A stretch of 64,000 bases of DNA from Myxococcales bacterium (GTDB lineage: Bacteria; Myxococcota_A; Polyangia; Fen-1088), in contig PMBS01000254.1 of NCBI GenBank assembly GCA_003153015.1, forward strand, positions 9,568-73,567. Direction: 5' to 3'. Shown here piece by piece: positions 15,902 to 54,557 of this stretch. The notes below the pieces were generated by a model. The model was not told the origin of the DNA. It saw nothing but the letters and a program-made list of their open reading frames with translations, and searched no databases. Made by a program: the position numbers and the translations under genes. The first letter of the stretch is position 1; each line of letters begins with the position of its first letter.

Positions 15902-16849
15902 CTACTGCGTCACCTTGATCTTGTATTGCTTGAAAGTCGTGCCACCGCGTGAATCGCGCAGCACGAGCCACAGGTAGACCGGCATTGCCGTATCCGGGGC
16001 CTTCCAGGTATTGCTGGTCGAGATTGCGACTTCGGTGCCTGCCACACCCGTGCGGTCGTGTTCAAACGACCCGGACGTGGCAAACCAGGACATGTACAAA
16101 CTCTCGGTTTGATCCACCAGCGCGTCGCCGCTCGGGTTGAGGACCGGGAACGTCTCGGCCGAGCTCGCCGTGAACCTTGCCTCGAAGACGACCGATTCGC
16201 CCGGCGACACGATCTGGGTGTCGAAATCGAGGTTCAGCCGGGAACCGTCGGCCCTGACAACATCGGTGGAGGCGATGCCGGGATCGTTGTTCGGTTGGTA
16301 CCGCGTGTTGTATTCGTCGACAATAGTCGTTGGAGCATTGGCCAGATTGCAGGCAATTCGCTCAAAGGCAAATCCGGTCAGGCTGCCGGTCGCTAGATCA
16401 GGGAATTTCACCCGAACCGGCAAGTAGTAGCCGCCGGTGCTATCCGGATCGCGCGGTCTGATCGCCGGCTGTCCCGCCGAAGGCGGGGGCGCAATGGGGC
16501 CGAACAGGGTGCAGGCGTTGGTGAGGACCGGGGTCTCGAAGGTCTGTCCCGTGGTCGGGCCAGGCGCGGGAGGATTGCAGGCACTGGCCACCGAATTGTT
16601 CTCGGCCGGGGGTTTGGGTGTCTCGCAAACATCCCAGCCTGCGGTGGCGTCGGTCACAGTTCCCGCGGGCGATGCAAGCAAGAAGGAGTACACCACGTCG
16701 GCCCCTGGCTTGGACTCGGGGGGCTCGCCCCTCACCGCGAGAAGAGCGTAGTCGGTGACGAGCGAGGGAGCCTGCCCCACCTCGGGCTTGCACCCGAGCA
16801 CGGTGCTGGCAAGAGCGACCACAAGAAGAGGTTGTTTTGCGTAGGCCAT
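15902..16849 (-). CDS. lipoprotein of unknown function (paralog of 53535..54557)
   Basis: Signal peptide with lipobox (ASTVLGC); start abuts the stop of the upstream TonB-dependent receptor; shared motifs GGYYLPVRV and WYATAGSFEHD with the cassette-B paralog. Confidence 0.7.
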   Translation of the reverse strand: MAYAKQPLLVVALASTVLGCKPEVGQAPSLVTDYALLAVRGEPPESKPGADVVYSFLLASPAGTVTDATAGWDVCETPKPPAENNSVASACNPPAPGPTTGQTFETPVLTNACTLFGPIAPPPSAGQPAIRPRDPDSTGGYYLPVRVKFPDLATGSLTGFAFERIACNLANAPTTIVDEYNTRYQPNNDPGIASTDVVRADGSRLNLDFDTQIVSPGESVVFEARFTASSAETFPVLNPSGDALVDQTESLYMSWFATSGSFEHDRTGVAGTEVAISTSNTWKAPDTAMPVYLWLVLRDSRGGTTFKQYKIKVTQ

Positions 16850-19501
16850 CTAGAACTCCAGGCGTGCACCCGCAACCGCAAGTATCGGCAGTCCGATGAT
16901 GTAGCTTCGCTGCTTGTAGTCCTGACTGTAAATAGTCTCCTCGGGATTCTTGCGATTAGTAACGTTTTGCACGTCGATGAACATGCTCAGCTTCGTCCGC
17001 CGCATGACGAATGCCTTTTCGCCACGGAGATCCAGTTGGTAGAAGGCCGGGATGCGAATGGAGTTGTGCGCTCCGAAGACGGGCTCATAGTAGCCGTTTC
17101 TGCCGAGATAGCTGTCCACCACCGGTGTGCGCGGCATCCCGCTGGAGTAGCGAAAACGTCCACCTACCACGAAGTCCCTGCCCAACTCGTAGCTGGCGAG
17201 GAGAGCCAGCACGTGGGTCTGGTCATAGTCGAACAAGCGAAATGCCTGATCAGGATGATCGCGGCGCTCGCTGCGTGACAGGGTGTAGGTCGCCCAGCCG
17301 AAGAAGCCCTTGAACAGTTCCTGTCGAAGCAGAACTTGGAGTCCAAACACGCGACCGGTTCCATCCTGGGCCAGCGCCTGTCCCACTGGCGGGGATGGAC
17401 TTTCGCTGCGTGAGACGAGGTCGTACAGTTTCTTGTAGAAACCCACGGATTCCAAGGTCAAGGTCGGACGCAGCTTGAACGAGAACCCACCGGTCAGGTG
17501 TACGGCATATGACCCCACAATTGACGGGTTGCCGAATACCGGGGACATGTCCGCGGGATCGGGCGGCTGGCCGTATACTCCCGCGCCGCTGGTGAGGGTG
17601 AGCTTGGGGGTAGGTCGCCACGCGATCTGCAAACGCGGATTGGGAAAGTTGCGCAGCACCGGGACGCTAATCGGATTGGGGGGAGCGTCGAGCCGAGAAT
17701 AGCCGACCGGGGGCGCGATATTGCTGAACGGAAGGCGATGATCCCCTTCGATCCAAGTGGGTTCGAAACGCAAGCCCGGCGTCACGGTCCAGTTGCCGAG
17801 CTTGATGTCCACCGTGGCATAGCTGGCCACGCTGAAGACAGTCACGTTCCAGTTGTCGGATGCGGTCTCGGATGGGGGGCGTTGGCCGAAGACGACGATG
17901 TCTCCTTCCCGGGGCGGCTGGTTCACTGAACCGTTCCGGCTGAGTTGGACTTGCTGTCCCTGTACATCCATGCCGACCAAGAGCACCGCCGTCGGATGAA
18001 TGCGCCGGCGCAGACTTCCGCGCAAAGCGTAGGACAAGGTCTGCGTGTCGAGCTGCGTGCTTTCATCGCCGAAAGTGTCTCGCTCGGCATTGTGGTCGAT
18101 GCCCATCGAGGGAGTCACGCGCACGCTGGAGCCATCGTCGAACAAGCGGCTGTAGCTGACGAAGATGCGGCGAAAAGAGGTGTCATTGTTCTGCGTGCGC
18201 AGATCTGCGGGGTCGCTGGCCGGAATGGTTCGTTGCAGGTGATCGTCCGACGCGAGAAAAGTCGCGGCGATCTCCTCGTCCTTGCGCAGGCTCAGGGAGG
18301 CCCGCGCCTGGTAGTCGTCGTAGCGCGGGATAGGAAATGAGTCGCCGATGTCGGCCGAGGTGACTCCCGATATCACGCGGTCGAGGTAGCTGATACGTCC
18401 AGCCACGGCCAAGCGCAGCCGTGGGGTCACTGCGGCTGACACCTCGGCCGAGGTGTCCATGATGTCGCCGGCAACATAGCCGTGCACGCCGGACGGGGGA
18501 AGCTGGCCGAGTTCGATGCGCACCAGACCGCCCAGCCCGCGTCCGTAGTCGGCGCCGTACGCCCCGGGCGAGAGATCGATGGACTTGACCAGATCGGAGT
18601 TCACCGTCGAGCGTAGACCGCCCATGTGGTACAGGCTGGGAATCTCCACCCCCTCAACCACCACCCTGGTCTCCTTGGGCGAGGAGCCCCAGACCACAAG
18701 CTGGCCTGAACCGAAGCTGGCGCGTCCCACCCCCGGCAGGTTCTGCACAACCTTGAGGGTGTCGCCCTGCGTGCCAGGAACCTTGCGCGCCTCTTCGGTG
18801 CGGATGCGGGTTTCCACCGCCTCCTTCTTGATGCGGGCCGCACGTACGATGACTTCCTCGTCGACGTCTTCCTCCCTCTGTTCGACGTAGTACTTCATGG
18901 TGCGCTTCTGGCTCGGCCGGATGGTTTCGTCGGTCAGCACAGTGACGAGCCGCGGATGTCGGATCTCAACCTTGTGCGCGCCAGGAGGCAGATCAGTGAA
19001 CGAGAAGGCCCCGGCCGCATCGGTCTTGGTGGCCAAGTCCAGGTCCTTGATACGCACGGTCACATCGGCCATGGGCTGCTTTTTGAATCGATCCAGAACC
19101 ACGCCCTCGAAGTTCACCTGTGGTCCGAGTGACACCATCTTGGTCACAATGGTGAAGTCGTAGCGGTAAGTGATCTTGACGGGAATGGCTTGTCCTCCGG
19201 CCTCCGCCGGGGTGAAGAGGAACTGCCGGGCAGCAGCAACCGCGGCGCTGTCGAAATCGGACCCGCCGCTTTCGACAACCTCGACCCCGCCCACCTTGCC
19301 GTCGTCCCCCACCTCGATCGAAAGCAGCACGCGTGCGGTGATGCCGGCGTCGTGCTTGTCCTTGGGGTATTCGGCCGGGACGAAATGAATCAGGCGCGGG
19401 GGCTTGGTGATGGCGACCGTTTCATCGGCACGCGAAGGCCCCGGGCAGACCGGGAACCCGGCGCCCACCAGAGCGGCCACAAAGACAAGGCGGTGGTGCA
19501 A
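16850..19501 (-). CDS. TonB-dependent receptor-like outer-membrane protein with N-terminal TonB-C-like domain and carboxypeptidase-regulatory-like domain
   Basis: 883 aa with signal peptide. The TonB_C signature (AEYPKDK...ARVLLSIEVGDDGKV...SGGSDFDSAAVAAARQFLFTPAE...PVKITYRYDF) is followed by a CarboxypepD_reg-like beta-sandwich, a plug-domain motif (GTQGDTLKVVQNLPGVGR) and a long barrel ending in C-terminal Phe. Confidence 0.8.
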   Translation of the reverse strand: MHHRLVFVAALVGAGFPVCPGPSRADETVAITKPPRLIHFVPAEYPKDKHDAGITARVLLSIEVGDDGKVGGVEVVESGGSDFDSAAVAAARQFLFTPAEAGGQAIPVKITYRYDFTIVTKMVSLGPQVNFEGVVLDRFKKQPMADVTVRIKDLDLATKTDAAGAFSFTDLPPGAHKVEIRHPRLVTVLTDETIRPSQKRTMKYYVEQREEDVDEEVIVRAARIKKEAVETRIRTEEARKVPGTQGDTLKVVQNLPGVGRASFGSGQLVVWGSSPKETRVVVEGVEIPSLYHMGGLRSTVNSDLVKSIDLSPGAYGADYGRGLGGLVRIELGQLPPSGVHGYVAGDIMDTSAEVSAAVTPRLRLAVAGRISYLDRVISGVTSADIGDSFPIPRYDDYQARASLSLRKDEEIAATFLASDDHLQRTIPASDPADLRTQNNDTSFRRIFVSYSRLFDDGSSVRVTPSMGIDHNAERDTFGDESTQLDTQTLSYALRGSLRRRIHPTAVLLVGMDVQGQQVQLSRNGSVNQPPREGDIVVFGQRPPSETASDNWNVTVFSVASYATVDIKLGNWTVTPGLRFEPTWIEGDHRLPFSNIAPPVGYSRLDAPPNPISVPVLRNFPNPRLQIAWRPTPKLTLTSGAGVYGQPPDPADMSPVFGNPSIVGSYAVHLTGGFSFKLRPTLTLESVGFYKKLYDLVSRSESPSPPVGQALAQDGTGRVFGLQVLLRQELFKGFFGWATYTLSRSERRDHPDQAFRLFDYDQTHVLALLASYELGRDFVVGGRFRYSSGMPRTPVVDSYLGRNGYYEPVFGAHNSIRIPAFYQLDLRGEKAFVMRRTKLSMFIDVQNVTNRKNPEETIYSQDYKQRSYIIGLPILAVAGARLEF

Positions 19502-20236
19502 TCAATCCCCCAGCTCAAAACGGCGGGCCAAGACATAGGTCCCTCCCGCGACCGGCTTGCCACAGGCCATGGCTGGCCGGAAGCGCCACTGTTTGACCGC
19601 GGCCACCGCGGCCGCGTCGAGTTCGGGGGAGACGCTGGCCAGCACCTCGACCGCCATCACCGAGCCGTCCGCGCCGACCACGATCTTCAGCTTGAGCTTG
19701 CCTTCGATCCCCTCGGAGCGTGCTGCAGCCGTGTACTCGATCTCGGTCTTGAATACGGGCTCAGGCTTGGAAGGCTCGTCCGTGCAGCGCTCCTCGATGT
19801 TCGGCCCTGCCCCCAGCTCCTGGCGCTGGCGGTGGTGATGCGCCTCGGGTTCGAAGGTGGCCACCTTGGTGGGCGCCACGGCCTGGGGGGCCCGCACGAT
19901 CGGGATTGCCACGGCATCGCCGATATCCTCGTTGCTCATGGCGATCTCGGTCGGCATGACCATGGTAGCCACCTTGGCTGCCGCAACTGGGGCCGCGACC
20001 GGCATGAGCTTGGGCGCGGCCGCGAGTTTCTGCTCCTTCGGCTTCGCATCCACCTTGGCCAGCTTGGGCGGAGCCTTGGGCTTGAGCGGCGCCTCCTTCT
20101 TCTTCTTCTTCTTGGCCTCCTCCTGCAACTGCACAACGTAGGTCTTGCCCGAGGCGCGGTGTTGCGATGCCGTGAGCAGGGCAAACGCAAACCCGGCGTG
20201 AATGACCATCGAAATAGCGACCGTGGACTTCTTCAC
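19502..20236 (-). CDS. tonB: TonB family energy transducer
   Basis: N-terminal TM, Lys/Pro/Ala-rich spacer, C-terminal TonB_C domain. Confidence 0.75.
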   Translation of the reverse strand: MKKSTVAISMVIHAGFAFALLTASQHRASGKTYVVQLQEEAKKKKKKEAPLKPKAPPKLAKVDAKPKEQKLAAAPKLMPVAAPVAAAKVATMVMPTEIAMSNEDIGDAVAIPIVRAPQAVAPTKVATFEPEAHHHRQRQELGAGPNIEERCTDEPSKPEPVFKTEIEYTAAARSEGIEGKLKLKIVVGADGSVMAVEVLASVSPELDAAAVAAVKQWRFRPAMACGKPVAGGTYVLARRFELGD

Positions 20237-20280: not shown

Positions 20281-20700
20281 CTACTCGCCTCCCACCTGCA
20301 TGACGTTGATTGCGAACTTTGTGACACCGGCGACTTTGGCGAGATCCATGACGTGAACCACCTGGCCGTGGGCCGCCTCTTTGTCAGCGCTGATGACCAC
20401 GCTGATTTCCGGATCGGCCGCCACCACCTCCTTCATGTGGCCTCCCAATTCTTGTTCGGTGACCGGCTGTTCGTTCCAGCGCAGCTCTCCATTCTTGAAC
20501 AACTGCACGGTGTTGGGCTTTTCCGCGGTGCCGTCGCTCATCTTTGCCCTGGGCAGGCTGACCTTCAGGGTCTGCGCCACGATGTATGTCGACGCCACCA
20601 TCAGGATGACCAACAACACCAGGCATACATCGACCAGCGGGGTCACATTGATGGCGGAAATCGTCTTGGCCCGCCCCACACCTGCCATCGTGCCAGCCAT
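20281..20700 (-). CDS. exbD: biopolymer transport protein ExbD/TolR
   Basis: 139 aa with single TM (INVTPLVDVCLVLLVILMV) and ExbD periplasmic domain. Confidence 0.8.
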   Translation of the reverse strand: MAGTMAGVGRAKTISAINVTPLVDVCLVLLVILMVASTYIVAQTLKVSLPRAKMSDGTAEKPNTVQLFKNGELRWNEQPVTEQELGGHMKEVVAADPEISVVISADKEAAHGQVVHVMDLAKVAGVTKFAINVMQVGGE

Positions 20701-21437
20701 CAGCCATTCACCTCGGCCGGGCGCAGCCTGGGAGACTCCCCGATCTCATCCAGCGCGGCAGCTGATGCCTTGTGCGTGTTCTTCGGGTTCCTGGTCGACT
20801 TCATGACCGCCAAGACCTGATTGGCGAGGGCGGCCGAGTTTTCTTCGATGTCATTGCACTTCTTCTGGAACAGGTTGAAGGCGACCACCGCGGGAATGGC
20901 GACCAAGATGCCGATGGCGGTGGCGATGAGGGCCTCGGAGATGCCGCTCATCACGTTGCCCATGCCGCCCGCGCCACCCGCGGCGGCCATGTTGGCCGAG
21001 GCAGCCCCCAATTCCTTGAAAGCCGCAACCACGCCGAGCACAGTGCCGAACAGGCCAATGAATGGGGCGTTGTTGCCCAGGGTGCCGAGGAATATGAGCC
21101 CGCTCTCGAAGACCTTGCGGCGTTGGCGGATGCCTTTCTGCACGATCTCCTGCAGGGAATCGGGACCGTCGGCGTAGTAGTCCAGGGCGTCGCGCAGGAT
21201 CTCGGCCTCGACGGCCCGCATTTCCTCCAGCTCCCGCTTGGCACCGGCCACATCCCCGGCGCGCAGTCGCTTAGCCAACGCATTGCCGGTCGCGATCATG
21301 TCCAGGCGCCGCTTGCGGAAGTACCACCAGCGCTCGATCACCACGCCGACCGAATAGACCGACAGCGCGAGCAGAATGTAGAGGACCGCGGCAGCCCCGG
21401 TTTGGGCAACAAATACCAGTTTGTGCATCAGCAGCAT
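20700..21437 (-). CDS. exbB: MotA/TolQ/ExbB proton-channel protein
   Basis: 245 aa, three TM segments, conserved C-terminal TM2/3 region (GLIFLGTLGNNAPFIGLFGTVLGV...SEALIATAIGILVAIPAV). Confidence 0.8.
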   Translation of the reverse strand: MLLMHKLVFVAQTGAAAVLYILLALSVYSVGVVIERWWYFRKRRLDMIATGNALAKRLRAGDVAGAKRELEEMRAVEAEILRDALDYYADGPDSLQEIVQKGIRQRRKVFESGLIFLGTLGNNAPFIGLFGTVLGVVAAFKELGAASANMAAAGGAGGMGNVMSGISEALIATAIGILVAIPAVVAFNLFQKKCNDIEENSAALANQVLAVMKSTRNPKNTHKASAAALDEIGESPRLRPAEVNG

Positions 21438-21453: not shown

Positions 21454-22374
21454 TTAGTAGTCAAACACCTGCGCCTGTACTCCCGCCCCCTGTCCGTGGG
21501 GAAAACGTGTGTCGAGATCGGTCGATTGTCCGGAAGCTTGCAACAGGGGGTCGACCCCGTTGTTGGTGAAGACGCGAACCAGCCAGCGCGCGGTGGTCTC
21601 GGCGCACAGAGAGAAAGTGTCGACGCGCACGATGTAGCGTCCATTGGGAGCCGTGGTGGGGAAGATCACATTCTCCGCCCGGCGCCCGTCGATCACACAC
21701 GTGCTGTTGGAGTCGAAATCGAGGTAGCCCGCCTGCTTTCCGTCGTCGACACTCGCGCCGACTGTCCCGAGCGGCAGACCAGATGGCTTTCGCGACCAGA
21801 TCTCGTTTACCCCTGCATCCCCATCGCTGGGCAACTGCACGTGCAGGTCGAGATCGGCTTCAGTGTCCCAATCCAGGCTGATGACCAGGGCGCCCGCGGT
21901 CCGCGGCTGGTCCATGGTCATCGGTTGCAACCTCGCCGGCCCCACCTGTCCATCGCGCGTGGTGGCGCGAAAGGCCAGAAACAGATTGCCGGCGTCCCCT
22001 CCAGAGGGCGTTCGCGGGGAGAAGGACGCAGAGAATGAAAAGGTGTAGTTGCCGGTGACGTTATAGTCGATGTCCTGCACGGGCACGACCCAGTGACCCA
22101 CGTCGCCCTGCAACCCAACGAGCACCGCGGTCGAGTTGGGGCCGACGCTGCCCGATATCTTCTTGTTGGCAACGCCCGGGAATAGGTTGGGGTTTTGCAT
22201 CGTTATATTTGCGACTGCTGGCGCAGGATCGCGATCGATGGTGTCAATGGGACCAGGAATGTATTGCGCGCCCTGGATCCTGAACAGCGCCTGCTGGCCA
22301 GAACTCGGGTCAGTGCCGGAACAGCCCCCGCAGAGCAGTCCAGCCGCAAGAAGACTGAGCGCGAGAGGGCGCAT
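21454..22374 (-). CDS. lipoprotein of unknown function (paralog of 49919..50860)
   Basis: Lipobox LLCGGC; shares motifs (ALVISLDWD..DLDLHVQ, YIVRVD.FSLC) with the cassette-B paralog. Confidence 0.65.
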   Translation of the reverse strand: MRPLALSLLAAGLLCGGCSGTDPSSGQQALFRIQGAQYIPGPIDTIDRDPAPAVANITMQNPNLFPGVANKKISGSVGPNSTAVLVGLQGDVGHWVVPVQDIDYNVTGNYTFSFSASFSPRTPSGGDAGNLFLAFRATTRDGQVGPARLQPMTMDQPRTAGALVISLDWDTEADLDLHVQLPSDGDAGVNEIWSRKPSGLPLGTVGASVDDGKQAGYLDFDSNSTCVIDGRRAENVIFPTTAPNGRYIVRVDTFSLCAETTARWLVRVFTNNGVDPLLQASGQSTDLDTRFPHGQGAGVQAQVFDY

Positions 22375-25665: not shown

Positions 25666-25742
25666 GGCAATCCTGCCTCCATTTCAGACCCGGCAAACCC
25701 GGGCCGCGGTGGGACCATAGCGAGATACCCGGCGAGCGACTG

Positions 25743-25781
25743 CGACGGATTTGCGTCGGATTTGTGACGGAAGCGCAACAG
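25743..25781. promoter_or_regulatory. 11-bp phased direct repeats (minus-strand GTCACAAATCC GACGCAAATCC GTCGC)
   Basis: Lies ~80-115 bp upstream of the cassette-A PstS-like gene start, in the divergent region shared with the small MYXO-CTERM ORF. Confidence 0.4.
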
Positions 25782-29170: not shown

Positions 29171-29187
29171 GCGGGACGGCCAGCGAG

Positions 29188-29205: not shown

Positions 29206-29283
29206 GAGAAATTCATAAATACCTCACCCGACACTGCCATGGGCGGGGGTATCTACGCATGACAACTATTCCCGGGCAGGGAC

Positions 29284-46540: not shown

Positions 46541-46780
46541 TATATGCGGGCACAAGCGCAAGGACTCGGTGTCCAAAGAGGGGGGCGGCGAAACGCCGGG
46601 GCGCGTGGTCAGCAGGGACAGACCGGGACGACTCCTCGACGGAAAAGCGACTCGACAGGAATTGTCACGCAACGGAATAGTGACGGAAAAGCGACAAGAG
46701 CGCGCACATAACCATTTCTGTTGACCCCACGATTTGCCGATTGCTATAGGCACTCCATCCTCGAACCACGCGGAGGCCCG

Positions 46781-48046: not shown

Positions 48047-48072
48047 GCATGCACGATCAAGAGGAGAAACAG

Positions 48073-48336
48073 ATGCGCGGACAACTGCTACGGGGCCTGT
48101 TCATGGGCCTCTTTCTGGCCGGGTGTGGTTCGGGAAACCCCGGACCCCAGGTGGATGGGCCACCACCACCACCACCACCGGACGCGCCGTCCGTGATTCT
48201 CGACAACCCTGACGCCGGTTGCGACGAGGACGCAGTGGGCGAGGACTACTTCATCAAGAATTGTACTCCGGGCGGAGGCGGGACACAGGTGTTGCGCCAG
48301 AATCCGGTTCCCTACCAGACCTGCAAGACGCTTTGA
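48073..48336 (+). CDS. small lipoprotein (Pro-rich)
   Basis: RBS GAGGAG; lipobox FLAGC; its stop overlaps the porin start (TGATG). Confidence 0.55.
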   Translation: MRGQLLRGLFMGLFLAGCGSGNPGPQVDGPPPPPPPDAPSVILDNPDAGCDEDAVGEDYFIKNCTPGGGGTQVLRQNPVPYQTCKTL

Positions 48337-49919
48337 TGGGCATGTTGTTCATGAAGTTGGGGCAGGACTCTTGCCCGCGGAAATGCCTAGGTACCGCGGT
48401 CTTCCTGGTGGGCCTGGCCGTCACAAGCTGGGCAAGCCCGGTTTCCGCGCAGGTTGGTGCAAGGAAGCCGAAAGAGCCCGCGCCTGATCCGATGGCCGAG
48501 ATAGAGAAGGTCAAGGCGGAATTCGAGCAACGCCTTGCCGACGGGGAGGCTGCGGCCAAGGCGCGCGAGGAAGCCATCCGCAAGGAACAGGCGGCTGCGG
48601 TCGAGGCCGCACGGGATGAGGCGGACAAGCGCGTGACCGCGGATCGCAACGAGCGCCAGGCCGAAGTCCTGCGCCTGCAAAAGGCACTGGATGAGGCGGC
48701 CGCGCGCGAGGATGCGCGCGAGCGCAACGCGCCGCCTGCGGTGAAGGCGGGCATGGCCGGTGTATCGCTCTACAGCTATGTGCAGGCCGACTATCAAGTG
48801 CGCCAATCGTCTGAGGATCAGCTTGACCCCGGAAGTGGCCAGCCGCTCAACCAGGACCGGTTTTTCATCCGGCGTGCCCGCCTGGGTGTGACCCTGGATC
48901 GGCGATTCGGCGAGGGTCGGCTGGAGATCGACGGCAACACGGTCAACGGACCTCAGTTGCGGCTGTTCGACGTGGAAGCCTCGGCGAAATGGCCAGGCCG
49001 GGGCGATGGCGCCCCGCCCGTGGCCATGGGAACCATTGGATTGTTCAGGATTCCGTTCGGGCGCGAGGTGCCGCAAGATGACCGCCGGCGCTTCTTCATG
49101 GAACGCAGCACGGCGGCCCGAGCACTGTTCCCGGGCGAGGCCGACCTGGGCGCCAGGGTGGGTGGTGGGTGGCGCTTTGTCCGGTATGTCCTGGCGGTGA
49201 TGAACGGTCAGCCACTGGGCAGCAGCGCGTTTGCCGGGCTGGATCCCAATCATCAGAAAGATCTGGTTGGGCGTCTGGGGGTCGAGGACTCGCGGGGTCG
49301 GATCGATTTTGCGGGCGGGGTATCCGGGCTGCGCGGCACGGGATTCCACCCGGGAACGACCGCGACCAAACCGACGCTGCAATGGAATGATTCGAACGAC
49401 GACGGTATCGTCAACGTTGGCGCAGGGGAGGTGAACGGAGTTCCCGGCGTGGCAGCGGGGACGTCGTCCAACTACACCCGTTTCGCATTCGGGGCGGATC
49501 TGGCCCTGTCGCTGCGTTTGCCGCACCAACTGAAGACGAGTCTGGAGGCGGAGTTCTTTCTGGCCAACGATCTGGATCGCGGAGTGTCTCCCGCCGATCC
49601 ACAGGGAACCTTGGGCCGAAGCATGCGCGAGCTCGGCTACTACCTGGCCTTGATCCAGGAATTCGGGCGCTGGCGGCTGGGTGTCCGATACGACTACTAC
49701 AACCCTGATCAAGACTCGAACAAGATAGCCAAGGGCAACCCTGTCCCCACCGACGTGACCTACTCCACTTTGGCCGTGGCCGCGGCCTGCGTGGCGCCCT
49801 GGGGCAGGTTGATTGTCGAGTACGACCGCAACCAGAACCATCTGGGCATCAACACATCAGGCATGCCTGCCAATCTGGGCGACAACGCCCTGCTCATTCG
49901 TGGCGAGGTGAGTTTCTGA
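48336..49919 (+). CDS. outer-membrane beta-barrel porin-like protein with N-terminal coiled-coil (possibly phosphate-selective porin O/P family)
   Basis: Signal peptide; coiled-coil region; beta-strand-rich body ending IRGEVSF; paralog of 22374..24056 (shared FVQADLNVRQTSEDQL / YVQADYQVRQSSEDQL). Confidence 0.6.
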   Translation: MGMLFMKLGQDSCPRKCLGTAVFLVGLAVTSWASPVSAQVGARKPKEPAPDPMAEIEKVKAEFEQRLADGEAAAKAREEAIRKEQAAAVEAARDEADKRVTADRNERQAEVLRLQKALDEAAAREDARERNAPPAVKAGMAGVSLYSYVQADYQVRQSSEDQLDPGSGQPLNQDRFFIRRARLGVTLDRRFGEGRLEIDGNTVNGPQLRLFDVEASAKWPGRGDGAPPVAMGTIGLFRIPFGREVPQDDRRRFFMERSTAARALFPGEADLGARVGGGWRFVRYVLAVMNGQPLGSSAFAGLDPNHQKDLVGRLGVEDSRGRIDFAGGVSGLRGTGFHPGTTATKPTLQWNDSNDDGIVNVGAGEVNGVPGVAAGTSSNYTRFAFGADLALSLRLPHQLKTSLEAEFFLANDLDRGVSPADPQGTLGRSMRELGYYLALIQEFGRWRLGVRYDYYNPDQDSNKIAKGNPVPTDVTYSTLAVAAACVAPWGRLIVEYDRNQNHLGINTSGMPANLGDNALLIRGEVSF

Positions 49920-50860
49920 TGAGGAGCGTAATCAGCGGTCTGCTGGCGGTCTGGTCTCTGTGCGCTTTGTCGGCACCCGCTTGTCAGTGGTCTTCGGACT
50001 CGTTTTCGGGTTTGACCTCGGTGATACGGGTGCAAGGCGGCCAGGCGATGCGTGGTTCCATTGCAGGGCCAACCGATACCATCTCGGCCCAAGCGACTCT
50101 GTCACCCCGGGACTACACGATCTTTCCCGGTGAGAGCAACAAGTCGATCAAGGGGACGGTTGAGGCTGACGCCCACGCGGTTGCGCTGGGCGTGGCCGGG
50201 GACGATGCCTATTGGCTGGTGCCAGCCCTGAGCCCGGACAATCCATTGGATCCGCAGTACTTCAACTTCACCGCCAGCCTCTCGTTGTCGCCCGCGCTGG
50301 CAAGTAGCCCGCTGCTGCAGGACAACCAAGATGGCACGTGGACGCTTCCCCTGTCCTATCGTGCGGTTGACGATGCGGGGAACTTCGGGTCGGCGAGGGT
50401 TCAGCCGCTGATTATGGACGCGCTGGGGCCCAAGGGCGCATTGGTCGTGTCTCTCGACTGGGACGCGCCAGTCGATCTGGATCTGCACGTGCAGACCCCG
50501 ATCCCCGCCAATAATAGGGCGGGTTTCGTCATTGTCTGGGCCAAGCAGCGCAGCGCGGAACCCAACCTCCCGGATGGCGGCGTGGATGGCAACCTGGATT
50601 TCGATTCCAACGAGGATTGCCAGATCGATGGGCGCGATCGCGAGAACGTGGTGTGGACAGGGCAGCCGCCCTCCGGCCACTACATCGTGCGGGTGGATGC
50701 CTTTTCATTGTGCGGGCAGGTGTCGGCCGCCTGGCACGCCCTTGCCTACTCCCCGCAGGGAACCGTGGGCGAGGCCTCGGGCGTGCTCACCGATGCCTCC
50801 ACCCGCGAGGCTCCGACCGCGGGCGCCGGCCTGACCGCCTTCGAGTTCGACTACCCGTAG
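49919..50860 (+). CDS. lipoprotein of unknown function (paralog of 21454..22374)
   Basis: ATG overlaps the porin TGA; signal peptide. Confidence 0.6.
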   Translation: MRSVISGLLAVWSLCALSAPACQWSSDSFSGLTSVIRVQGGQAMRGSIAGPTDTISAQATLSPRDYTIFPGESNKSIKGTVEADAHAVALGVAGDDAYWLVPALSPDNPLDPQYFNFTASLSLSPALASSPLLQDNQDGTWTLPLSYRAVDDAGNFGSARVQPLIMDALGPKGALVVSLDWDAPVDLDLHVQTPIPANNRAGFVIVWAKQRSAEPNLPDGGVDGNLDFDSNEDCQIDGRDRENVVWTGQPPSGHYIVRVDAFSLCGQVSAAWHALAYSPQGTVGEASGVLTDASTREAPTAGAGLTAFEFDYP

Positions 50861-50871
50861 GTTCCGCAAGC

Positions 50872-53535
50872 ATGCGTCTTCTCGCAGTTGCCGCCACCTG
50901 GTTTCTTGCGGCAGGGATTTCCCTGGCAGCGCGGGGCGAGTCTCCGCCGGGCGAGGCGGGGGAGCCCGGCAAGGGCTTGCATCCGCCCAAGCTGCTGAAG
51001 TTCGTCGAAGCGGTCTACCCTGAAGACAAGCGCGCCGTCGGCGCAGGCGCCAAGGTGGTGCTGTCCATCGAGGTGGAGGACAGCGGACGGGTGGGAAACG
51101 TGGAGGTGGTGGTACCCGCCGGTCCCGATTTCGACGCGGCGGCAGTGGCCGCGGCCCGGCAGTTCGAGTTCGAGCCCGCCACGCTGGACGGAACGCCGGT
51201 GCCGGTGAAAATCCAGTACGCGTACAAGTTCGTGGTCAAGGAAGTGCTGGTGCCGGTAGGCCTGCAGGTCAACCTGGAAGGCGTGGTCCTGGATCGGTTC
51301 AGCAAGGCTCCCTCACGCGGGGTGAAGGTCAGAATCGTGGATTTGGGGGTCGACGCGTCCACCGACCAGGATGGTGCTTTTGCCTTCACCGACGTGCCAC
51401 CGGGCCCGCACGTGATCGAGCTGTCATCGCGCGAGCTGGTGACCATCAAGACAGAAGAGGTCATCACCAAAGGCAAGAAGAAGTCGGTCAAGTACATGGT
51501 CGAGGCCAAAGAAGCCGACGTGGACGAAGAAGCAGTGGTACGCGCGCCGCGTATCAAGAAGGAAGTGGTTGAGACACGGGTGCGCACCGAAGAGGCCAAG
51601 CGCGTCCCCGGCACCCAGGGCGACACGCTCAAGGTGGTGCAGAATTTGCCCGGCGTGGGCCGCTCGGCCTTCGGCTCGGGTGCACTCATCGTGTGGGGAT
51701 CGGCACCGCAGGACACGCGAGTCAACGTCGACGGGGTGGAGATTCCGGTGCTGTACCACGTGGGCGGCATGCGTTCGACCATCAACGCGGATCTAGTGCG
51801 TTCCATCGACCTGTCGCCCGGCTCGTTCGGGGCCGACTACGGCCGTGGCCTGGGCGGGTTGGTGCGCATCGACCTGCTGGACCCCGGGCACGAGGGCGTG
51901 CACGGCTACCTGGCCGCGGATGTGATGGACGTCTCCGGCATGGTCAGGGCCGCCATCACGCCCAATCTTCGGGTGGCCGTGTCTGGCCGCCAGGGCTATC
52001 TCGACCAAACCCTCAAGGCGGCGGTGTCCAAGGACGTGGGCGATTTCTTCCCCATTCCTCGCTACGACGACTATCAAGCGCGGGTCTCGGCCACCCTGGG
52101 CAAGGACGAGGAACTCTCCGCGACCTTCCTGGCTTCCGACGATCACCTGACCCGTACCGTTCCTTCATCGGATCCATTGGAATACAAGAAACAGGACCAG
52201 AATCTGCTCTACCGGCGCTTCATGGTGCGCTACACGCGCCTGTTTGCGGACGGTTCCAGCATTGCCGTCACGCCATCCTTGGGCTACGACCAGAACCAGC
52301 AGCAGTGGAGTTTCGGCGGCACCCCCCTCCTGCTCGACACCACCACCTGGCAGTACGCGCTGCGCGCCTCGTACCGACGGCGGGTCACGGGCAAGATCAT
52401 TCTTTCCACGGGCCTGGATTTCCAGGGGCGCAGCAGCACCTCTGACCGGGTTGGGTCCCTGGAGTTGCCGGCCCGCGAGGGTGACGTCACCGTCTTCGGC
52501 CAGTCGCCGGGGACCGATCTTGCGTCCGATCGCTGGAAGGTCAATCTGCTGTCAGCCGCGGCCTACGTCTTCGCGGAGATCAATATCGGCCGCCTGACTC
52601 TGACCCCGGGATTCCGGTTCGAGCCCACGGTGATCGATGGTAGCCTGCGGCTGCCCCACAGCTATCAGGCGCCGGACATCGGGTACCGGCGAATGGATCT
52701 AGCCCGGAATCCTTCATTCGGACCACTGAGCTGGATGCCCAATCCAAGACTGTCGGCTGCCTACCGGGCCACCCACAAGCTGACCTTCACGGCAGGCGCC
52801 GGCATCTACGGCCAGCCACCTACGGTCGAGGATCTGAGTCCGGTCTTCGGCAATCCGAATCTGTCAAGCTCGTCCGCGATTCACGCCAGTGGAGGCGGTT
52901 CTTACAAGCTGACGGGAACCCTGGTCTTCGAGGTCGTGGGATTCTACAAGCGTCTTTACGACCTGGTGGCGCGCAGCGGATTGCCGTCGCCGCCAGTGGG
53001 CCAGTCCCTGCAGCAGACTGGCATCGGCCACAGCTATGGCGGGCAGGCGCTATTGCGGCAGGAGCTGGCCAAGGGGTTCTTCGGCTGGTTCACCTATTCG
53101 CTCATCCGCAGCGAGCGCAAGGATCGACCGACGAGCAACTGGCGCCTGTTTGACTACGACCAGACCCATGTACTCGCGCTGCTGGCCAGCTACGAGATCA
53201 CCCGCGGTTTTCTGGCCGGCGCGCGCTTTCGCTACACCACGGGCGCGCCGCGAACGCTGGTCGTAGGAGCCTACTTCAATGCTACGTCTCAGCAGTACGA
53301 GCCCATCTTCGGGGCGCAGAACTCGATTCGCCTTCCCGGATTCTACTCGCTCGACGTTCGGCTGGAGAAGGCCTTCGTGCTTCGGCGTCTCAAGTTCAAC
53401 GTCTTCGCCGACGTGCAGAATGTGACCAATCGGAAGAACCCCGAGGAAATCATCTACAGTGCCGACTACAGCCAGCGCAGCTACATCACGGGGTTGCCGG
53501 TTCTGGCGGTGGTTGGCATGCGAATGGAGTTCTGA
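50872..53535 (+). CDS. TonB-dependent receptor-like outer-membrane protein with N-terminal TonB-C-like domain (paralog of 16850..19501)
   Basis: Signal peptide; TonB_C-like region; plug motif GTQGDTLKVVQNLPGVGR identical to paralog; C-terminal F. Confidence 0.8.
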   Translation: MRLLAVAATWFLAAGISLAARGESPPGEAGEPGKGLHPPKLLKFVEAVYPEDKRAVGAGAKVVLSIEVEDSGRVGNVEVVVPAGPDFDAAAVAAARQFEFEPATLDGTPVPVKIQYAYKFVVKEVLVPVGLQVNLEGVVLDRFSKAPSRGVKVRIVDLGVDASTDQDGAFAFTDVPPGPHVIELSSRELVTIKTEEVITKGKKKSVKYMVEAKEADVDEEAVVRAPRIKKEVVETRVRTEEAKRVPGTQGDTLKVVQNLPGVGRSAFGSGALIVWGSAPQDTRVNVDGVEIPVLYHVGGMRSTINADLVRSIDLSPGSFGADYGRGLGGLVRIDLLDPGHEGVHGYLAADVMDVSGMVRAAITPNLRVAVSGRQGYLDQTLKAAVSKDVGDFFPIPRYDDYQARVSATLGKDEELSATFLASDDHLTRTVPSSDPLEYKKQDQNLLYRRFMVRYTRLFADGSSIAVTPSLGYDQNQQQWSFGGTPLLLDTTTWQYALRASYRRRVTGKIILSTGLDFQGRSSTSDRVGSLELPAREGDVTVFGQSPGTDLASDRWKVNLLSAAAYVFAEINIGRLTLTPGFRFEPTVIDGSLRLPHSYQAPDIGYRRMDLARNPSFGPLSWMPNPRLSAAYRATHKLTFTAGAGIYGQPPTVEDLSPVFGNPNLSSSSAIHASGGGSYKLTGTLVFEVVGFYKRLYDLVARSGLPSPPVGQSLQQTGIGHSYGGQALLRQELAKGFFGWFTYSLIRSERKDRPTSNWRLFDYDQTHVLALLASYEITRGFLAGARFRYTTGAPRTLVVGAYFNATSQQYEPIFGAQNSIRLPGFYSLDVRLEKAFVLRRLKFNVFADVQNVTNRKNPEEIIYSADYSQRSYITGLPVLAVVGMRMEF

Positions 53536-54557
53536 TGAAACGGGCAAACATCGGAGCCATGGTTCTGTTGGTTCTGCTTGCTGCCTGCAAGCCGCAGGTG
53601 GGGCCGCCCATTTCTCTGATCAGCGGGCCCGCGATCCTGGCTGTGAAAGGCGAGCCTGCTGAGGTCGATCCCAAGGCCGCGGATCCGACCGTCCACTACG
53701 AGGCGTTGGCCGTGGACATGGGCGGTCGCGTCCCCGCGCCCAACGCTGACATAACCTCACCTCTGCTCTGGTCCATCTGCAACAGGCCCAAGCCACCGAC
53801 CGAGAGCAACTCGGTGAGTGCCGCCTGCCTGGACGAAAATGCCTTGCCCGGCACAGCCGGGGACTCGCCCGATACCTACTCTGCACCCGCCCCGTTAGAC
53901 TCGTGCACCCTGTTTGGTCCGCAGATACCGCAATCCCCAGAGGGCCAGCCACCCATCCGGCCGCGGGATCCCGACGTCACCGGTGGGTACTACTTGCCGG
54001 TGCGGGTGAGTCTGTCAGTTCCGGAGGAATTGCGTCGCGCGGGGATGGCCACCGAAGATTCCGTGATCGGCTTCCAGCTACAGCGCATCTACTGCGGCCT
54101 AGCCAATGCGCCGGGCCAGTATGTATACCAGTACGGCAAGGACTACACGCCCAACCAAAACCCGGTGATTGCCTCGCTAACCCTGCAGCAGCCCGGTGCT
54201 GATCCGGTCGAGGTTCCTCCGATTTCGGCCGGAGGCGCGGCGTTCCCGGTTGCGGCTGGGCAGACGGTCTCGTTGACGGTTAGCTGGCCTGCCGAGTCGG
54301 TGGAAAACTACCCCGCCTGGGATGTACTCACTCGCACACTTCCCAATCACTACGAAGCCATGCGGGTTTCTTGGTACGCGACGGCGGGGTCATTTGAACA
54401 CGACATCACCGGGCGCAGCGAATCAGAATTTGAAACCCTCTTCGCCGAGAATACTTGGACGCCCGGCGCTCCGGGGCCGGTTCACCTGTGGGTGGTGCTA
54501 CACGACAGCCGTGGCGGAACGGATTTCGCCGGCTACGATCTCGACGTCACGCCCTGA
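53535..54557 (+). CDS. lipoprotein of unknown function (paralog of 15902..16849)
   Basis: ATG overlaps the receptor TGA; lipobox LLAAC. Confidence 0.65.
   Translation: MKRANIGAMVLLVLLAACKPQVGPPISLISGPAILAVKGEPAEVDPKAADPTVHYEALAVDMGGRVPAPNADITSPLLWSICNRPKPPTESNSVSAACLDENALPGTAGDSPDTYSAPAPLDSCTLFGPQIPQSPEGQPPIRPRDPDVTGGYYLPVRVSLSVPEELRRAGMATEDSVIGFQLQRIYCGLANAPGQYVYQYGKDYTPNQNPVIASLTLQQPGADPVEVPPISAGGAAFPVAAGQTVSLTVSWPAESVENYPAWDVLTRTLPNHYEAMRVSWYATAGSFEHDITGRSESEFETLFAENTWTPGAPGPVHLWVVLHDSRGGTDFAGYDLDVTP

What the first reader, a model, noticed from the sequence alone, without database searches (positions are those of the whole stretch)
15902..54557. Two inverted paralogous outer-membrane cassettes (PstS-like binder / porin / TBDT) bracketing a 21-kb lipoprotein island
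Cassette A (25665 down to 15902, minus strand) and cassette B (46781 to 54557, plus strand) encode the same ordered set of proteins. The set is a divergent PstS-like binding protein with Cys-rich tail, a small lipoprotein, a coiled-coil beta-barrel porin-like protein, a lipoprotein, a TonB-dependent receptor-like barrel, and a lipoprotein. A additionally carries exbB-exbD-tonB. Gene junctions are translationally coupled (ATGA/TGATG overlaps), implying single operons. Protein identity between paralogs is roughly 50-80%, so the duplication is old and both copies are maintained. The surrounding window is a Pho regulon (phoU, PhoB-like regulators, alkaline phosphatase, ppk/ppx, pstSC). A plausible, not established, function is a two-membrane scavenging system for phosphate or a phosphorus-containing substrate: a PstS-like binder delivers ligand to a TonB-energised outer-membrane gate. 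A PstS-like binder combined with a TonB-dependent transporter is not a described architecture as far as I know.
Basis: partly seen in the sequence, partly recalled or inferred. Interest (0 to 1): 0.85.

Follow-up and report, generated by a model that had tools for sequence, protein, structure and literature searches.

The report
Paired phosphate-linked outer-membrane uptake operons
Two old, diverged copies of a myxobacterial operon join a very divergent phosphate-binding protein, a phosphate-porin-like channel and a TonB-powered outer-membrane transporter, probably to scavenge phosphorus, in a gene arrangement I could not find described.

Summary
The two inverted cassettes exist at the stated coordinates with the stated gene order and coupled junctions. 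They are more diverged than claimed: 30-59% protein identity, and no detectable similarity between the small lipoproteins. Cassette A also extends to a PhoB-like response regulator (14986-15861).

The "PstS-like" call holds at fold level. There is no Pfam hit, but an AlphaFold model (pLDDT 86) matches only phosphate-binding proteins at the top of a PDB search. Cassette A's binder keeps all four PstS phosphate-ligand motifs. Cassette B's binder has lost the arginine and a threonine.

The porin belongs to a divergent Porin_O_P branch. The barrel is a true TonB-dependent transporter (TBDT) carrying an extra TonB_C-like N-terminal domain.

The order binder-porin-lipoprotein-exbB-exbD-tonB-TBDT-lipoprotein-regulator recurs in about 25-30 of 71 Myxococcota loci. 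An 11-bp-phased Pho-box-like repeat lies about 115-175 bp upstream and is 16-fold enriched there.

Best reading: a Pho-controlled phosphorus-acquisition module. It is a new variant of known Pho-regulated TonB-dependent phosphorus uptake. Interest is moderate to high.

The parts
25742..25780 (-). Candidate operator of cassette A. Four 11-bp-phased hexamers (TGTTGC / CGTCAC / CGACGC / CGTCGC), 115 bp upstream of the A1 ATG.
   Evidence: Read directly from the sequence. Related loci carry a matching repeat at the same position, -114/-115, in L003, L007, L010 and L002. The window copy has 3 mismatches to TGTMAC-N5-TGTMAC, so it fell just outside the scan.
24382..25665 (-). A1: Sec-exported, disulfide-rich PstS-fold binder (427 aa) with all four phosphate-ligand motifs retained and a Cys-rich C-terminal tail.
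   Evidence: No Pfam hit. TIGR02136 PstS at 23 bits, E 3e-5. AlphaFold2 pLDDT 86, pTM 0.85. Ranks 1-42 of a Foldseek PDB search are all phosphate-binding proteins. Motifs G47-S-S-A50, S77, D132, R200 and S204-G-T206 are conserved. Twelve Cys are invariant.
23954..24385 (-). A2: small lipoprotein (143 aa) with a Gly/Ala-rich linker. Poorly conserved.
   Evidence: ORF and ATGA overlap with A1. tblastn hits only in close relatives. No similarity to B2.
22374..23936 (-). A3: outer-membrane porin of a divergent Porin_O_P branch. It has an N-terminal coiled coil and an EF-hand-like loop. The start is probably the GTG at 23936.
   Evidence: Pfam PF07396 at 24 bits against a cut-off of 20.9. 6 of 16 locus homologues and about 30 of 120 database homologues carry PF07396, and one is named phosphate-selective porin. 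Start codon.
21454..22374 (-). A4: lipoprotein (306 aa), function unknown.
   Evidence: Signal peptide ending LLCGGC (the automated lipobox pattern did not flag it, and the lipobox was judged by eye). No Pfam family; a DUF2135 hint at E 0.022 in only 1 of 16 homologues. Conserved position.
20700..21437 (-). exbB
   Evidence: Pfam MotA_ExbB, E 1.4e-28.
20281..20700 (-). exbD
   Evidence: Pfam ExbD, E 2.6e-28.
19502..20236 (-). tonB
   Evidence: Pfam TonB_C, E 8e-17.
16850..19501 (-). A5: TonB-dependent transporter. Domain order: signal peptide, TonB_C-like domain, CarboxypepD_reg, TonB box (EEVIVRA, aa 215), plug, barrel.
   Evidence: Pfam TonB_dep_Rec_b-barrel 5e-18, TonB_C 3e-13, CarboxypepD_reg 1e-9, Plug 6e-7. 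TonB box.
15902..16849 (-). A6: lipoprotein (315 aa) built of Ig-like beta-sandwich domains. It always follows the TBDT gene.
14986..15861 (-). PhoB-like OmpR-family response regulator, 40 nt downstream of A6. Conserved last gene of the A-type unit.
   Evidence: Pfam Response_reg + Trans_reg_C. Best NCBIfam match is PhoB TIGR02154 at 198 bits, below the 296 cut-off. A regulator follows the last lipoprotein in L003, L007, L010, L019-21, L025, L026, L029, L053, L061, L063 and L067.
46662..46698 (+). Candidate operator of cassette B (TTGTCAC ... AGTGAC-N5-AGCGAC).
   Evidence: Match at 46680-46696 with 2 mismatches. Sequence.
46781..48046 (+). B1: paralogous PstS-fold binder. The Cys-rich tail is retained but the pocket is altered: the Arg is lost and SGT has become SGM.
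   Evidence: 30% identity to A1. Aligned motifs. Forms a separate long-branch clade with L009_851. TIGR02136 at 18 bits.
48049..48336 (+). B2: small lipoprotein (lipobox FLAGC).
   Evidence: No similarity to A2.
48336..49919 (+). B3: porin paralogue with an N-terminal coiled coil.
   Evidence: 44% identity to A3 over 497 aa. No Pfam hit of its own. Aligns across the family.
49919..50860 (+). B4: lipoprotein paralogue of A4.
   Evidence: 39% identity.
50872..53535 (+). B5: TBDT paralogue with the same domain order as A5 (TonB box EEAVVRA).
   Evidence: 59% identity to A5. Pfam TonB_C, CarboxypepD_reg and Plug. Start and TonB box.
53535..54557 (+). B6: lipoprotein paralogue of A6.
   Evidence: 40% identity. 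Lipobox LAAC.

Best explanation
Each cassette is a Myxococcota-specific envelope operon for phosphorus acquisition, under Pho-type control.

Shown:
- The operon encodes a Sec-exported PstS-fold protein whose phosphate-ligand motifs are intact in copy A.
- It also encodes a Porin_O_P-type outer-membrane channel, a TonB-dependent transporter with (in copy A) its own ExbB-ExbD-TonB motor, two or three accessory lipoproteins, and a PhoB-like response regulator.
- This unit and an upstream 11-bp-phased direct repeat are conserved across several myxobacterial families.

Inferred mechanism:
- When phosphate is scarce, a PhoB-like regulator binds the phased repeats about 115 bp upstream and switches the operon on.
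- The porin admits orthophosphate or pyrophosphate by diffusion.
- The TBDT, energised by the co-encoded TonB complex, imports a scarcer or bulkier phosphorus species, such as polyphosphate, an organophosphate or a metal-phosphate complex.
- The Ig-like lipoproteins act as accessory partners.
- The disulfide-rich binder traps the released phosphate in the periplasm and passes it to the canonical PstSCAB system encoded at the window's end.

Cassette B is an old, specialised duplicate. Its binder pocket has lost the arginine, so its ligand probably differs, and it must borrow a TonB complex in trans.
For: Fold and pocket:
- The AlphaFold2 model of A1 (pLDDT 86) gives phosphate-binding proteins at all of ranks 1-42 in Foldseek against the PDB (best E 1e-10, TM-score normalised to target up to 0.81).
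- A1 motifs GSSA, SSC, SDV and R-x3-SGT are collinear with GATF, GSG, ASD and R-x3-SGT of the window's own canonical PstS.
- They sit at strand-to-helix junctions of the model.
- They are conserved in every A-type and kinase-linked homologue examined.

Porin and motor:
- Porin_O_P is the only family that recurs among A3 homologues.
- The TBDT, ExbB, ExbD and TonB domains are clear.

Synteny:
- The same order recurs in about 25-30 of 71 loci. These include MAGs labelled Polyangia, Polyangiaceae, Kofleriaceae, Sandaracinaceae, Vulgatibacter and Myxococcaceae, and the Minicystis rosea genome.
- The regulator is nearly always the last gene.

Regulation:
- TGTMAC-N5-TGTMAC with up to 2 mismatches occurs 19 times in the window against 7.6 +/- 2.9 expected. 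Most sites lie in intergenic regions, including upstream of ppk, pstS and cassette B.
- In 26 related loci its density is 2.15 per kb in the 460 bp before the binder gene and 0.13 per kb elsewhere.

Context:
- Pho genes neighbour the binder in other lineages too: pstS in L021, pstS and phoU in L024, phoU in L041.
- Binder paralogues sit next to membrane Ser/Thr kinases. That fits a periplasmic location.
- Pi-starvation-induced TBDTs with downstream lipoproteins are documented in Flavobacterium (PMC8115612).
Against: - No expression, binding or localisation data exist for any component.
- The binder fails every sequence-based PstS threshold. A profile comparison with the window's own PstS reaches only 40% probability.
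- The pocket assignment rests on motif order and predicted secondary structure, not on a superposition.
- No pstCAB gene lies next to either binder.
- OmpR-family regulators in general bind phased direct repeats, so the motif does not prove PhoB control.
- The TBDT substrate is unknown, and the barrel has no close characterised relative.
- Six conserved disulfides and a Cys-rich tail are also what one would expect of a secreted protein.
Confidence: 0.5

Rival explanations
1. The PstS-like protein works outside the outer membrane as a secreted or surface-held phosphate carrier. It docks on the TBDT and delivers phosphate for TonB-energised import, as a haemophore does for haem.
For: - Binder and TBDT are strictly co-inherited in one translationally coupled operon.
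- Twelve invariant Cys and a Cys-rich tail absent from canonical PstS suggest a robust extracellular protein or a docking module.
- A canonical periplasmic PstS already exists at 61955-63022, so a second periplasmic binder is not obviously needed.
- The phosphate pocket is intact in A1.
Against: - The conserved neighbourhood contains no secretion system or surface-anchoring signal.
- A1 has a plain Sec signal and no lipobox.
- Paralogues with the same tail and pocket are paired with membrane Ser/Thr kinases. That argues for a periplasmic family.
- A dedicated phosphate-type porin in the same operon already provides a route for orthophosphate.
- No TBDT is known, from my own knowledge, to import orthophosphate.
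Confidence: 0.2
2. The TBDT is an exporter. Like Oar, which M. xanthus needs to secrete the protease PopC, it moves the binder or the accessory lipoproteins across the outer membrane.
For: - A5 and B5 carry CarboxypepD_reg before the plug.
- Oar-dependent protein secretion is documented in a myxobacterium (PMC6434023).
- The binder is a soluble Sec substrate encoded in the same operon.
Against: - Oar is the only documented case I know of. My recollection, not checked here, is that CarboxypepD_reg-type TBDTs are numerous and mostly presumed importers.
- A5 is much shorter than I recall Oar-type proteins to be (recollection, not checked here), and it has an extra TonB_C-like domain.
- Nothing here links the binder's tail to export.
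Confidence: 0.08
3. The cassette is mainly a sensor. The binder reports periplasmic or external phosphate, and together with the TBDT's N-terminal extension it signals to the co-encoded orphan response regulator.
For: - A regulator without a kinase is the conserved last gene.
- Paralogous binders are paired with Ser/Thr kinases.
- The TBDT has a two-domain N-terminal extension before its TonB box. In other TBDTs, N-terminal extensions serve signalling (own knowledge).
Against: - The extension is TonB_C-like, not an STN signalling domain.
- No anti-sigma, ECF sigma or kinase gene lies in the unit.
- A porin plus a dedicated ExbBD-TonB motor is a heavy investment for sensing alone.
Confidence: 0.1
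4. The system is not about phosphate. It imports another oxyanion or an unrelated nutrient, and the Pho neighbourhood is coincidental.
For: - Sequence similarity to PstS is below every curated threshold.
- ModA-type and sulfite-sensing proteins appear further down the fold list.
- B1 has lost the pocket arginine.
- The TBDT's first 90 residues match the N-terminus of a myxochelin (siderophore) receptor model.
Against: - All of Foldseek ranks 1-42 are phosphate binders, ahead of ModA.
- The aspartate is invariant. From own knowledge of E. coli PstS Asp56, this residue selects protonated phosphate over sulfate.
- Porin_O_P is the only porin family hit.
- Pho genes and Pho-box-like repeats recur next to the binder in independent lineages.
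- The MxcH match covers only the TonB_C-like domain.
Confidence: 0.1

Closest known systems
PstS / OprP pair of classical Pho regulons (periplasmic phosphate-binding protein plus phosphate-selective porin; Pfam PBP_like_2 and Porin_O_P)
   Same: - A type II binding-protein fold with collinear phosphate-ligand motifs.
- A Porin_O_P-type barrel.
- A Pho-gene neighbourhood and Pho-box-like repeats.
   Different: - The binder fails Pfam and TIGR thresholds, has six conserved disulfides and a Cys-rich tail, and is not next to pstCAB.
- The porin carries an N-terminal coiled coil and an EF-hand-like loop.
- Both are fused into one operon with a TBDT, ExbBD-TonB, lipoproteins and a regulator.
Phosphate-depletion-induced TBDT/lipoprotein loci of Bacteroidetes (PusCD and orphan TBDTs with downstream hypothetical lipoproteins; Lidbury et al. 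2021, PMC8115612)
   Same: - A TonB-dependent transporter with an adjacent lipoprotein in a Pho-linked locus next to phosphatases.
- The proposed role is outer-membrane import of phosphorus compounds.
   Different: - The lipoprotein here is an Ig-like beta-sandwich, not a SusD-type helical cap.
- The locus adds a PstS-fold binder, a porin and its own TonB motor.
- The plant-associated Bacteroidetes described there lack PstS altogether.
- The phylum differs.
Oar of Myxococcus xanthus (TBDT required for PopC secretion; PMC6434023)
   Same: A myxobacterial TBDT with a CarboxypepD_reg domain before the plug.
   Different: A5 and B5 have an additional TonB_C-like domain and sit in a Pho-linked operon. 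No evidence for export was obtained here.
Secreted PstS-like (DING-type) phosphate-binding proteins
   Same: A PstS fold; DING-type structures (4f1v, 2q9t, 4m1v) appear among the Foldseek hits. A possible extracellular life.
   Different: These hits rank below canonical PstS. The mature N-terminus of A1 has no DINGGG-type motif. The Cys-rich tail and the operon context are not DING features (own knowledge).
ElpS / Cc0171 of Caulobacter crescentus (Pi-starvation-induced secreted lipoprotein next to a TBDT; PMC2996285)
   Same: A phosphate-starvation-linked lipoprotein genetically paired with a TBDT and proposed to aid phosphate acquisition.
   Different: No sequence relationship was tested. There the TBDT is reported as constitutively expressed, and no PstS-like binder or porin belongs to the unit.

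Membership tests
PstS family (phosphate ABC-transporter substrate-binding protein; Pfam PF12849, TIGR02136) | Score above the curated family threshold | tested here: not met
   No Pfam hit for A1 or B1. TIGR02136 gives 23 and 18 bits against a cut-off of 206.6. No PDB sequence hit with the single sequence or the profile.
PstS family | Type II periplasmic binding-protein fold closest to phosphate binders | tested here: met
   AlphaFold2 pLDDT 86. Foldseek PDB ranks 1-42 are all phosphate-binding proteins, E down to 1e-10. Tested for A1 only.
PstS family | Phosphate-ligand residues (Thr/Ser + backbone after strand 1; Ser; Asp; Arg-x3-Ser-Gly-Thr) | tested here: met
   A1 has G47-S-S-A, S77, D132, R200 and S204-G-T206, collinear with the window's PstS motifs and conserved in A-type homologues. 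B1 does not meet this: the Arg is replaced and SGT is SGM. The assignment is by motif order, not by superposition.
PstS family | Encoded with pstCAB permease/ATPase genes | tested here: not met
   No pstC, pstA or pstB lies next to A1 or B1, or in the conserved unit. The canonical pstS at 61955-63022 lies at the window's end.
PstS family | High-affinity orthophosphate binding | not testable with these tools
   Needs purified protein (ITC or equilibrium dialysis).
Porin_O_P (OprO/OprP-type phosphate-selective porins, PF07396) | Score above the Pfam gathering threshold | tested here: met
   A3 scores 24.2 bits against 20.9, but only over profile positions 13-114 of 370. 6 of 16 locus homologues and about 30 of 120 database homologues carry PF07396. 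B3 itself has no hit but is 44% identical to A3.
Porin_O_P | Trimeric 16-strand barrel with an Arg/Lys ladder and anion selectivity | not tested
The PDB profile search gave no porin hit.
TonB-dependent transporter | Plug domain, 22-strand barrel domain and TonB box | tested here: met
   For A5: Plug 6e-7 and barrel 5e-18, TonB box EEVIVRA. For B5: Plug 1e-5, 59% identity to A5 over the full length, TonB box EEAVVRA.
ExbB-ExbD-TonB energiser | All three Pfam domains in adjacent genes | tested here: met
   E 1e-28, 3e-28 and 8e-17 in cassette A. Absent from cassette B.
SusCD/PusCD-type TBDT-lipoprotein pair | SusD-like, mainly helical (TPR-like) cap lipoprotein next to the TBDT | tested here: not met
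PhoB (TIGR02154 equivalog) | Score above the equivalog cut-off | tested here: not met
   PhoB is the best-scoring model for all three regulators, but at 198-216 bits against 296.2. They are PhoB-like, not assignable as PhoB.
Haemophore-type secreted binder + TBDT systems (functional analogy only) | Binder is extracellular and docks on the transporter | not testable with these tools
   Needs fractionation and interaction assays. No complex prediction was available.

The most novel reading that the evidence does not exclude
The disulfide-rich PstS-fold protein is released to the cell surface or the medium. It captures orthophosphate at very low concentration and docks on the TBDT. The transporter, powered by the co-encoded ExbB-ExbD-TonB, then pumps phosphate across the outer membrane. 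This would be a protein 'phosphate carrier' system analogous to haemophores, and the first TonB-energised import of orthophosphate.
Probability: 0.17. Interest if true: 0.88.

Novelty: new variant of a known kind. Interest (0 to 1): 0.6.

Why it matters
Phosphorus limits growth in many soils and peatlands. The closest relatives of this window are uncultured Myxococcales MAGs labelled "fen".

Outer-membrane steps of bacterial phosphorus uptake are well described only for porins. TonB-dependent phosphorus import has so far been inferred mainly in Bacteroidetes.

This locus is a compact, widely conserved and apparently self-regulated module. It ties a phosphate-pocket protein to a porin, a TBDT and a dedicated motor. 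That makes three questions directly testable in culturable carriers such as Minicystis rosea:
- what a TBDT does in phosphate scavenging;
- whether a PstS-fold protein can work with it;
- what ligand the pocket-altered second copy has acquired.

The analysis also defines a new Cys-rich PstS-like family. It has two other genomic contexts, including a pairing with Ser/Thr kinases.

Tried and rejected
- **Sequence routes to classify the binder failed.** Pfam gave nothing. PDB phmmer and profile hmmsearch gave no hit. BLASTP and hhalign against the window's own PstS gave E about 1 and 40% probability over the N-terminus only. Only the fold search and motif analysis were informative.
- **The porin profile found no porin in the PDB**.
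- **The lipoproteins remain unclassified.** A4 and A6 have no Pfam, NCBIfam or PDB sequence match, even when 15-16 homologues were scanned individually. The A6 model gave only generic Ig-like sandwich matches, so its role stays open. A resemblance of A4's C-terminal half to DUF2135, recalled from memory, got only E 0.022 in one homologue and is not claimed.
- **A2 and B2 could not be shown to be homologous**.
- **The afdb50 fold library was unavailable**.
- **Literature searches found nothing.** Five full-text searches for a PstS-TBDT architecture or a myxobacterial Pho-TBDT locus turned up no description. The library lacks most subscription papers, so this is weak negative evidence.
- **Rejected: gliding-motility (Glt/Nfs-type) envelope machine.** The cassettes have no matching domains.
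- **Rejected: recent duplication or assembly artefact.** DNA identity is only about 65% over the TBDT gene, with three short further matches elsewhere. The B-type binder also has an orthologue in another genome.
Full report
**1. What is in the sequence**

The window is 61-66% G+C in 2-kb windows. I chose genes by ORF length and third-position GC content.

Cassette A lies on the minus strand:
- A1 binder, 24382-25665
- A2 small lipoprotein, 23954-24385
- A3 porin-like, 22374-23936 (probable GTG start)
- A4 lipoprotein, 21454-22374
- exbB, 20700-21437
- exbD, 20281-20700
- tonB, 19502-20236
- A5 TonB-dependent transporter (TBDT), 16850-19501
- A6 lipoprotein, 15902-16849

Cassette B lies on the plus strand:
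- B1, 46781-48046
- B2, 48049-48336
- B3, 48336-49919
- B4, 49919-50860
- B5, 50872-53535
- B6, 53535-54557

A1/A2 overlap as ATGA. A3/A4, exbB/exbD, B2/B3, B3/B4 and B5/B6 overlap as TGATG. tonB/A5 and A5/A6 abut.

Pairwise identities are lower than claimed:

| Pair | Protein identity |
|---|---|
| Binders A1/B1 | 30% |
| Porins A3/B3 | 44% |
| Lipoproteins A4/B4 | 39% |
| TBDTs A5/B5 | 59% |
| Lipoproteins A6/B6 | 40% |
| Small lipoproteins A2/B2 | none detectable |

DNA similarity survives mainly in the TBDT gene, at 65%, with three short further matches.

**2. The binder**

Neither binder matches any Pfam family. The only sequence signal is a sub-threshold match to the PstS model TIGR02136, at 23 and 18 bits against a cut-off of 206. 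PDB sequence and profile searches and a direct comparison with the window's canonical PstS gave nothing useful.

A database search found 264 relatives. Almost all are unnamed metagenomic proteins; a few were auto-named [quoted passage not shown] or "Cys-rich repeat protein".

With a 40-sequence alignment, AlphaFold2 gave a confident model (pLDDT 86, pTM 0.85). In Foldseek against the PDB, ranks 1-42 are all phosphate-binding proteins: PstS of several bacteria and cyanophages, PhoX and DING proteins. The best E-value is 1e-10 and the TM-score normalised to target length reaches 0.81. ModA and sulfite sensors come only below these.

Four motifs of A1 are collinear with motifs in the window's canonical PstS:

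| A1 | Canonical PstS (61955-63022) |
|---|---|
| G47-S-S-A50 | GATF |
| S77 | GSG |
| S-D132-V | ASD |
| R200-x3-S204-G-T206 | R-x3-SGT |

From my own knowledge of E. coli PstS, these PstS motifs correspond to the ligands Thr10/Phe11, Ser38, Asp56, Arg135 and Ser139-Gly140-Thr141. In the model they lie at strand-to-helix junctions. That is where PstS places its helix dipoles.

The motifs are invariant or nearly so across the family. They are kept in every A-type homologue taken from genomes.

B1 keeps the Asp but replaces the Arg and turns SGT into SGM. Its only close relative, L009_851 (49% identity), does the same. The two form a separate long branch. The duplication is therefore old, and the second binder probably has a changed ligand.

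The family has twelve invariant cysteines, eight of them in the last ~70 residues. A1 has a plain signal peptide and no lipobox.

**3. The other components**

*Porin.* A3 passes the Pfam Porin_O_P threshold narrowly and only over the first third of the profile. Porin_O_P is nonetheless the only family that recurs. It hits 6 of 16 homologues from genomes and about 30 of the top 120 database homologues, one of which is named phosphate-selective porin. The family also has an N-terminal coiled coil of roughly 60-100 residues. A conserved W-x-D-x-N-x-[DN]-G...E loop resembles an EF-hand.

*TBDT.* A5 and B5 are genuine TBDTs, with plug, barrel and a TonB box (EEVIVRA / EEAVVRA). Before the TonB box they carry two extra domains, one TonB_C-like and one CarboxypepD_reg.

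*Motor.* ExbB, ExbD and TonB in cassette A are unambiguous.

**4. Conservation elsewhere**

A scan of one genome per species returned 71 loci. About half are labelled Myxococcales, Polyangia or families within them: MAGs labelled Polyangiaceae, Kofleriaceae, Sandaracinaceae, Byssovorax, Vulgatibacter and Myxococcaceae, plus complete genomes of Sorangium, Minicystis and Labilithrix. The rest carry only generic delta-proteobacterium or Proteobacteria labels.

The order binder-(small lipoprotein)-porin-lipoprotein-exbB-exbD-tonB-TBDT-lipoprotein recurs in about 25-30 of them wherever the contig is long enough. Binder identity there goes down to about 31%.

Versions without exbBD-tonB, like cassette B, occur in four places. 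One lies directly upstream of an A-type unit in L009. The others are in Minicystis rosea (L030), L059 and a Myxococcaceae MAG (L068).

An OmpR/PhoB-family regulator follows the last lipoprotein in nearly all A-type loci. The window's regulator at 14986-15861 therefore belongs to the unit.

About 30 further loci hold a lone binder paralogue with an intact pocket and tail. In the three I examined (Labilithrix, Minicystis, a Kofleriaceae MAG) it follows a Ser/Thr kinase gene and a TPR/PEGA gene.

**5. Link to phosphate regulation**

The window carries these Pho-type genes:
- PhoU
- three regulators whose best model is PhoB (198-216 bits, below the 296 cut-off)
- a PafA-like phosphatase
- ppk and ppx
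- a lipoprotein metallophosphoesterase
- a canonical PstS

Reading the intergenic regions, I saw hexamers of the type TGTCAC/TGTAAC repeated with an 11-bp phase. From my own knowledge, that is the layout of E. coli Pho boxes.

A scan for TGTMAC-N5-TGTMAC with up to two mismatches gave 19 sites against 7.6 +/- 2.9 expected. None of 100 shuffles reached 19. Most sites lie in intergenic regions. They include sites upstream of ppk, pstS, cassette B (46680-46696) and several island genes.

Cassette A has four phased hexamers at 25742-25780, 115 bp before the ATG. With three mismatches they fell just outside the scan.

In 26 related loci the motif density is 2.15 per kb in the 460 bp before the binder gene and 0.13 per kb elsewhere. 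Sites lie mostly at -114 to -175 in several clades.

Pho genes lie next to the binder in other lineages too: pstS in L021, pstS and phoU in L024, and phoU in L041.

This supports Pho-type control. It does not prove which regulator binds, because OmpR-family proteins in general use phased direct repeats.

**6. Mechanism**

Shown by the analysis:
- The parts list.
- The operon structure.
- The fold and pocket of the binder.
- Conservation of the unit.
- The upstream repeat.

Inferred:
- Phosphate limitation activates a PhoB-like regulator, which binds the phased repeats and switches the operon on.
- The porin admits orthophosphate or pyrophosphate.
- The TBDT, energised by its own TonB complex, imports a scarcer or larger phosphorus species.
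- The binder traps phosphate in the periplasm for PstSCAB.

I prefer a periplasmic binder for three reasons. The family's other members are partnered with membrane kinases. No export device is conserved nearby. A phosphate-type porin is already in the operon.

It is supported by the six disulfides, the extra tail, the strict linkage to the TBDT and the presence of a separate canonical PstS. I give it about 0.2.

Two smaller rivals remain. One is Oar-like export of the binder (PMC6434023). The other is a sensing role tied to the orphan regulator.

A non-phosphate function is unlikely given the invariant Asp, the ranking of fold hits and the recurrent Pho context.

**7. Comparison with known systems and novelty**

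The cassette combines two familiar Pho themes: a PstS/OprP-like pair, and a Pi-starvation TBDT with a downstream lipoprotein. The second is documented in Flavobacterium, where SusCD-like PusCD complexes and orphan TBDTs with adjacent hypothetical lipoproteins are induced by phosphate depletion (PMC8115612). It has a looser parallel in Caulobacter ElpS/Cc0171 (PMC2996285).

What appears undescribed:
- Fusion of all these parts, plus a dedicated ExbBD-TonB and a regulator, into one conserved operon.
- The Cys-rich PstS-like family itself.
- The TonB_C-like extension on the TBDT.

Five full-text searches found no such description. The library is incomplete, so this is weak negative evidence.

I class it as a new variant of a known kind. 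Interest is 0.6. It is solidly conserved and experimentally tractable, but the striking part, a binder feeding a TBDT, is still only one of several readings.

Noticed in passing
window 27152-33629 and 42949-46467; also 35952-38239 and 54713-58192: The island is built from paralogous lipoprotein modules. o27152, o29284, o31299 and o42949 share a ~450-aa C-terminal domain with weak SBBP beta-propeller signals; o31299 and o42949 are 63% identical there. o36812, o42949, o54713, Big35952 and the metallophosphoesterase at 55295-58192 share Big_9-like modules. o27152, o29284 and o31299, often with the TPR gene at 33742, are conserved neighbours upstream of the binder in close relatives. They could be surface phosphohydrolases or substrate catchers.
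   Followed up: partly
window 27053-27080, 29189-29205, 40578-40595, 54600-54650, 55174-55192, 12405-12437, 61848-61869: Pho-box-like 11-bp-phased TGTCAC/TGTAAC repeats also lie upstream of island lipoprotein genes, ppk, pstS and the metallophosphoesterase gene. The Pho-type regulon may therefore cover most of the window.
   Followed up: partly
A3, window 22374-23936 (loop WQDLNENGRYDSNEL); B3, 48336-49919: The porin family has a conserved EF-hand-like loop, W-x-D-x-N-x-[DN]-G...E, with a weak match to a calcium-binding FrpC segment. A calcium site in a phosphate-type porin would be unusual.
   Followed up: no
L032-L034, L040, L043 (Sorangium), L057 (Labilithrix), L048 (Minicystis), L039 (Kofleriaceae MAG): About 30 loci carry a lone Cys-rich PstS-like paralogue with an intact phosphate pocket. 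In the three examined (L057, L048, L039) it directly follows a Ser/Thr protein kinase gene and a TPR/PEGA gene, which suggests a phosphate-sensing kinase module.
   Followed up: partly
A5, window 16850-19501 (aa 43-117 and 132-215); B5, 50872-53535: Both TBDTs carry a TonB_C-like domain and a CarboxypepD_reg domain ahead of their own TonB box. The same N-terminal ~90 residues match the myxochelin receptor model MxcH, so this extension may be common among myxobacterial TBDTs. Its function is unknown.
   Followed up: no
window 6122-7057, 14164-14955, 14986-15861: Three paralogous PhoB-like response regulators (53-63% identical to each other) lie in the window. None of the ORFs I scanned matched a histidine-kinase family.
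   Followed up: no
L006, L011, L015: In these genomes an extra binder + small lipoprotein + regulator unit converges on a complete cassette on the opposite strand. In L009 a cassette without exbBD-tonB sits in tandem directly upstream of a complete one. The two-copy state therefore has several layouts.
   Followed up: no
window 6988-8892 versus 6122-7057: The PafA-like phosphatase ORF (minus strand) and the first regulator ORF (plus strand) overlap convergently by about 70 nt as listed. One of the ends may be mis-called.
   Followed up: no
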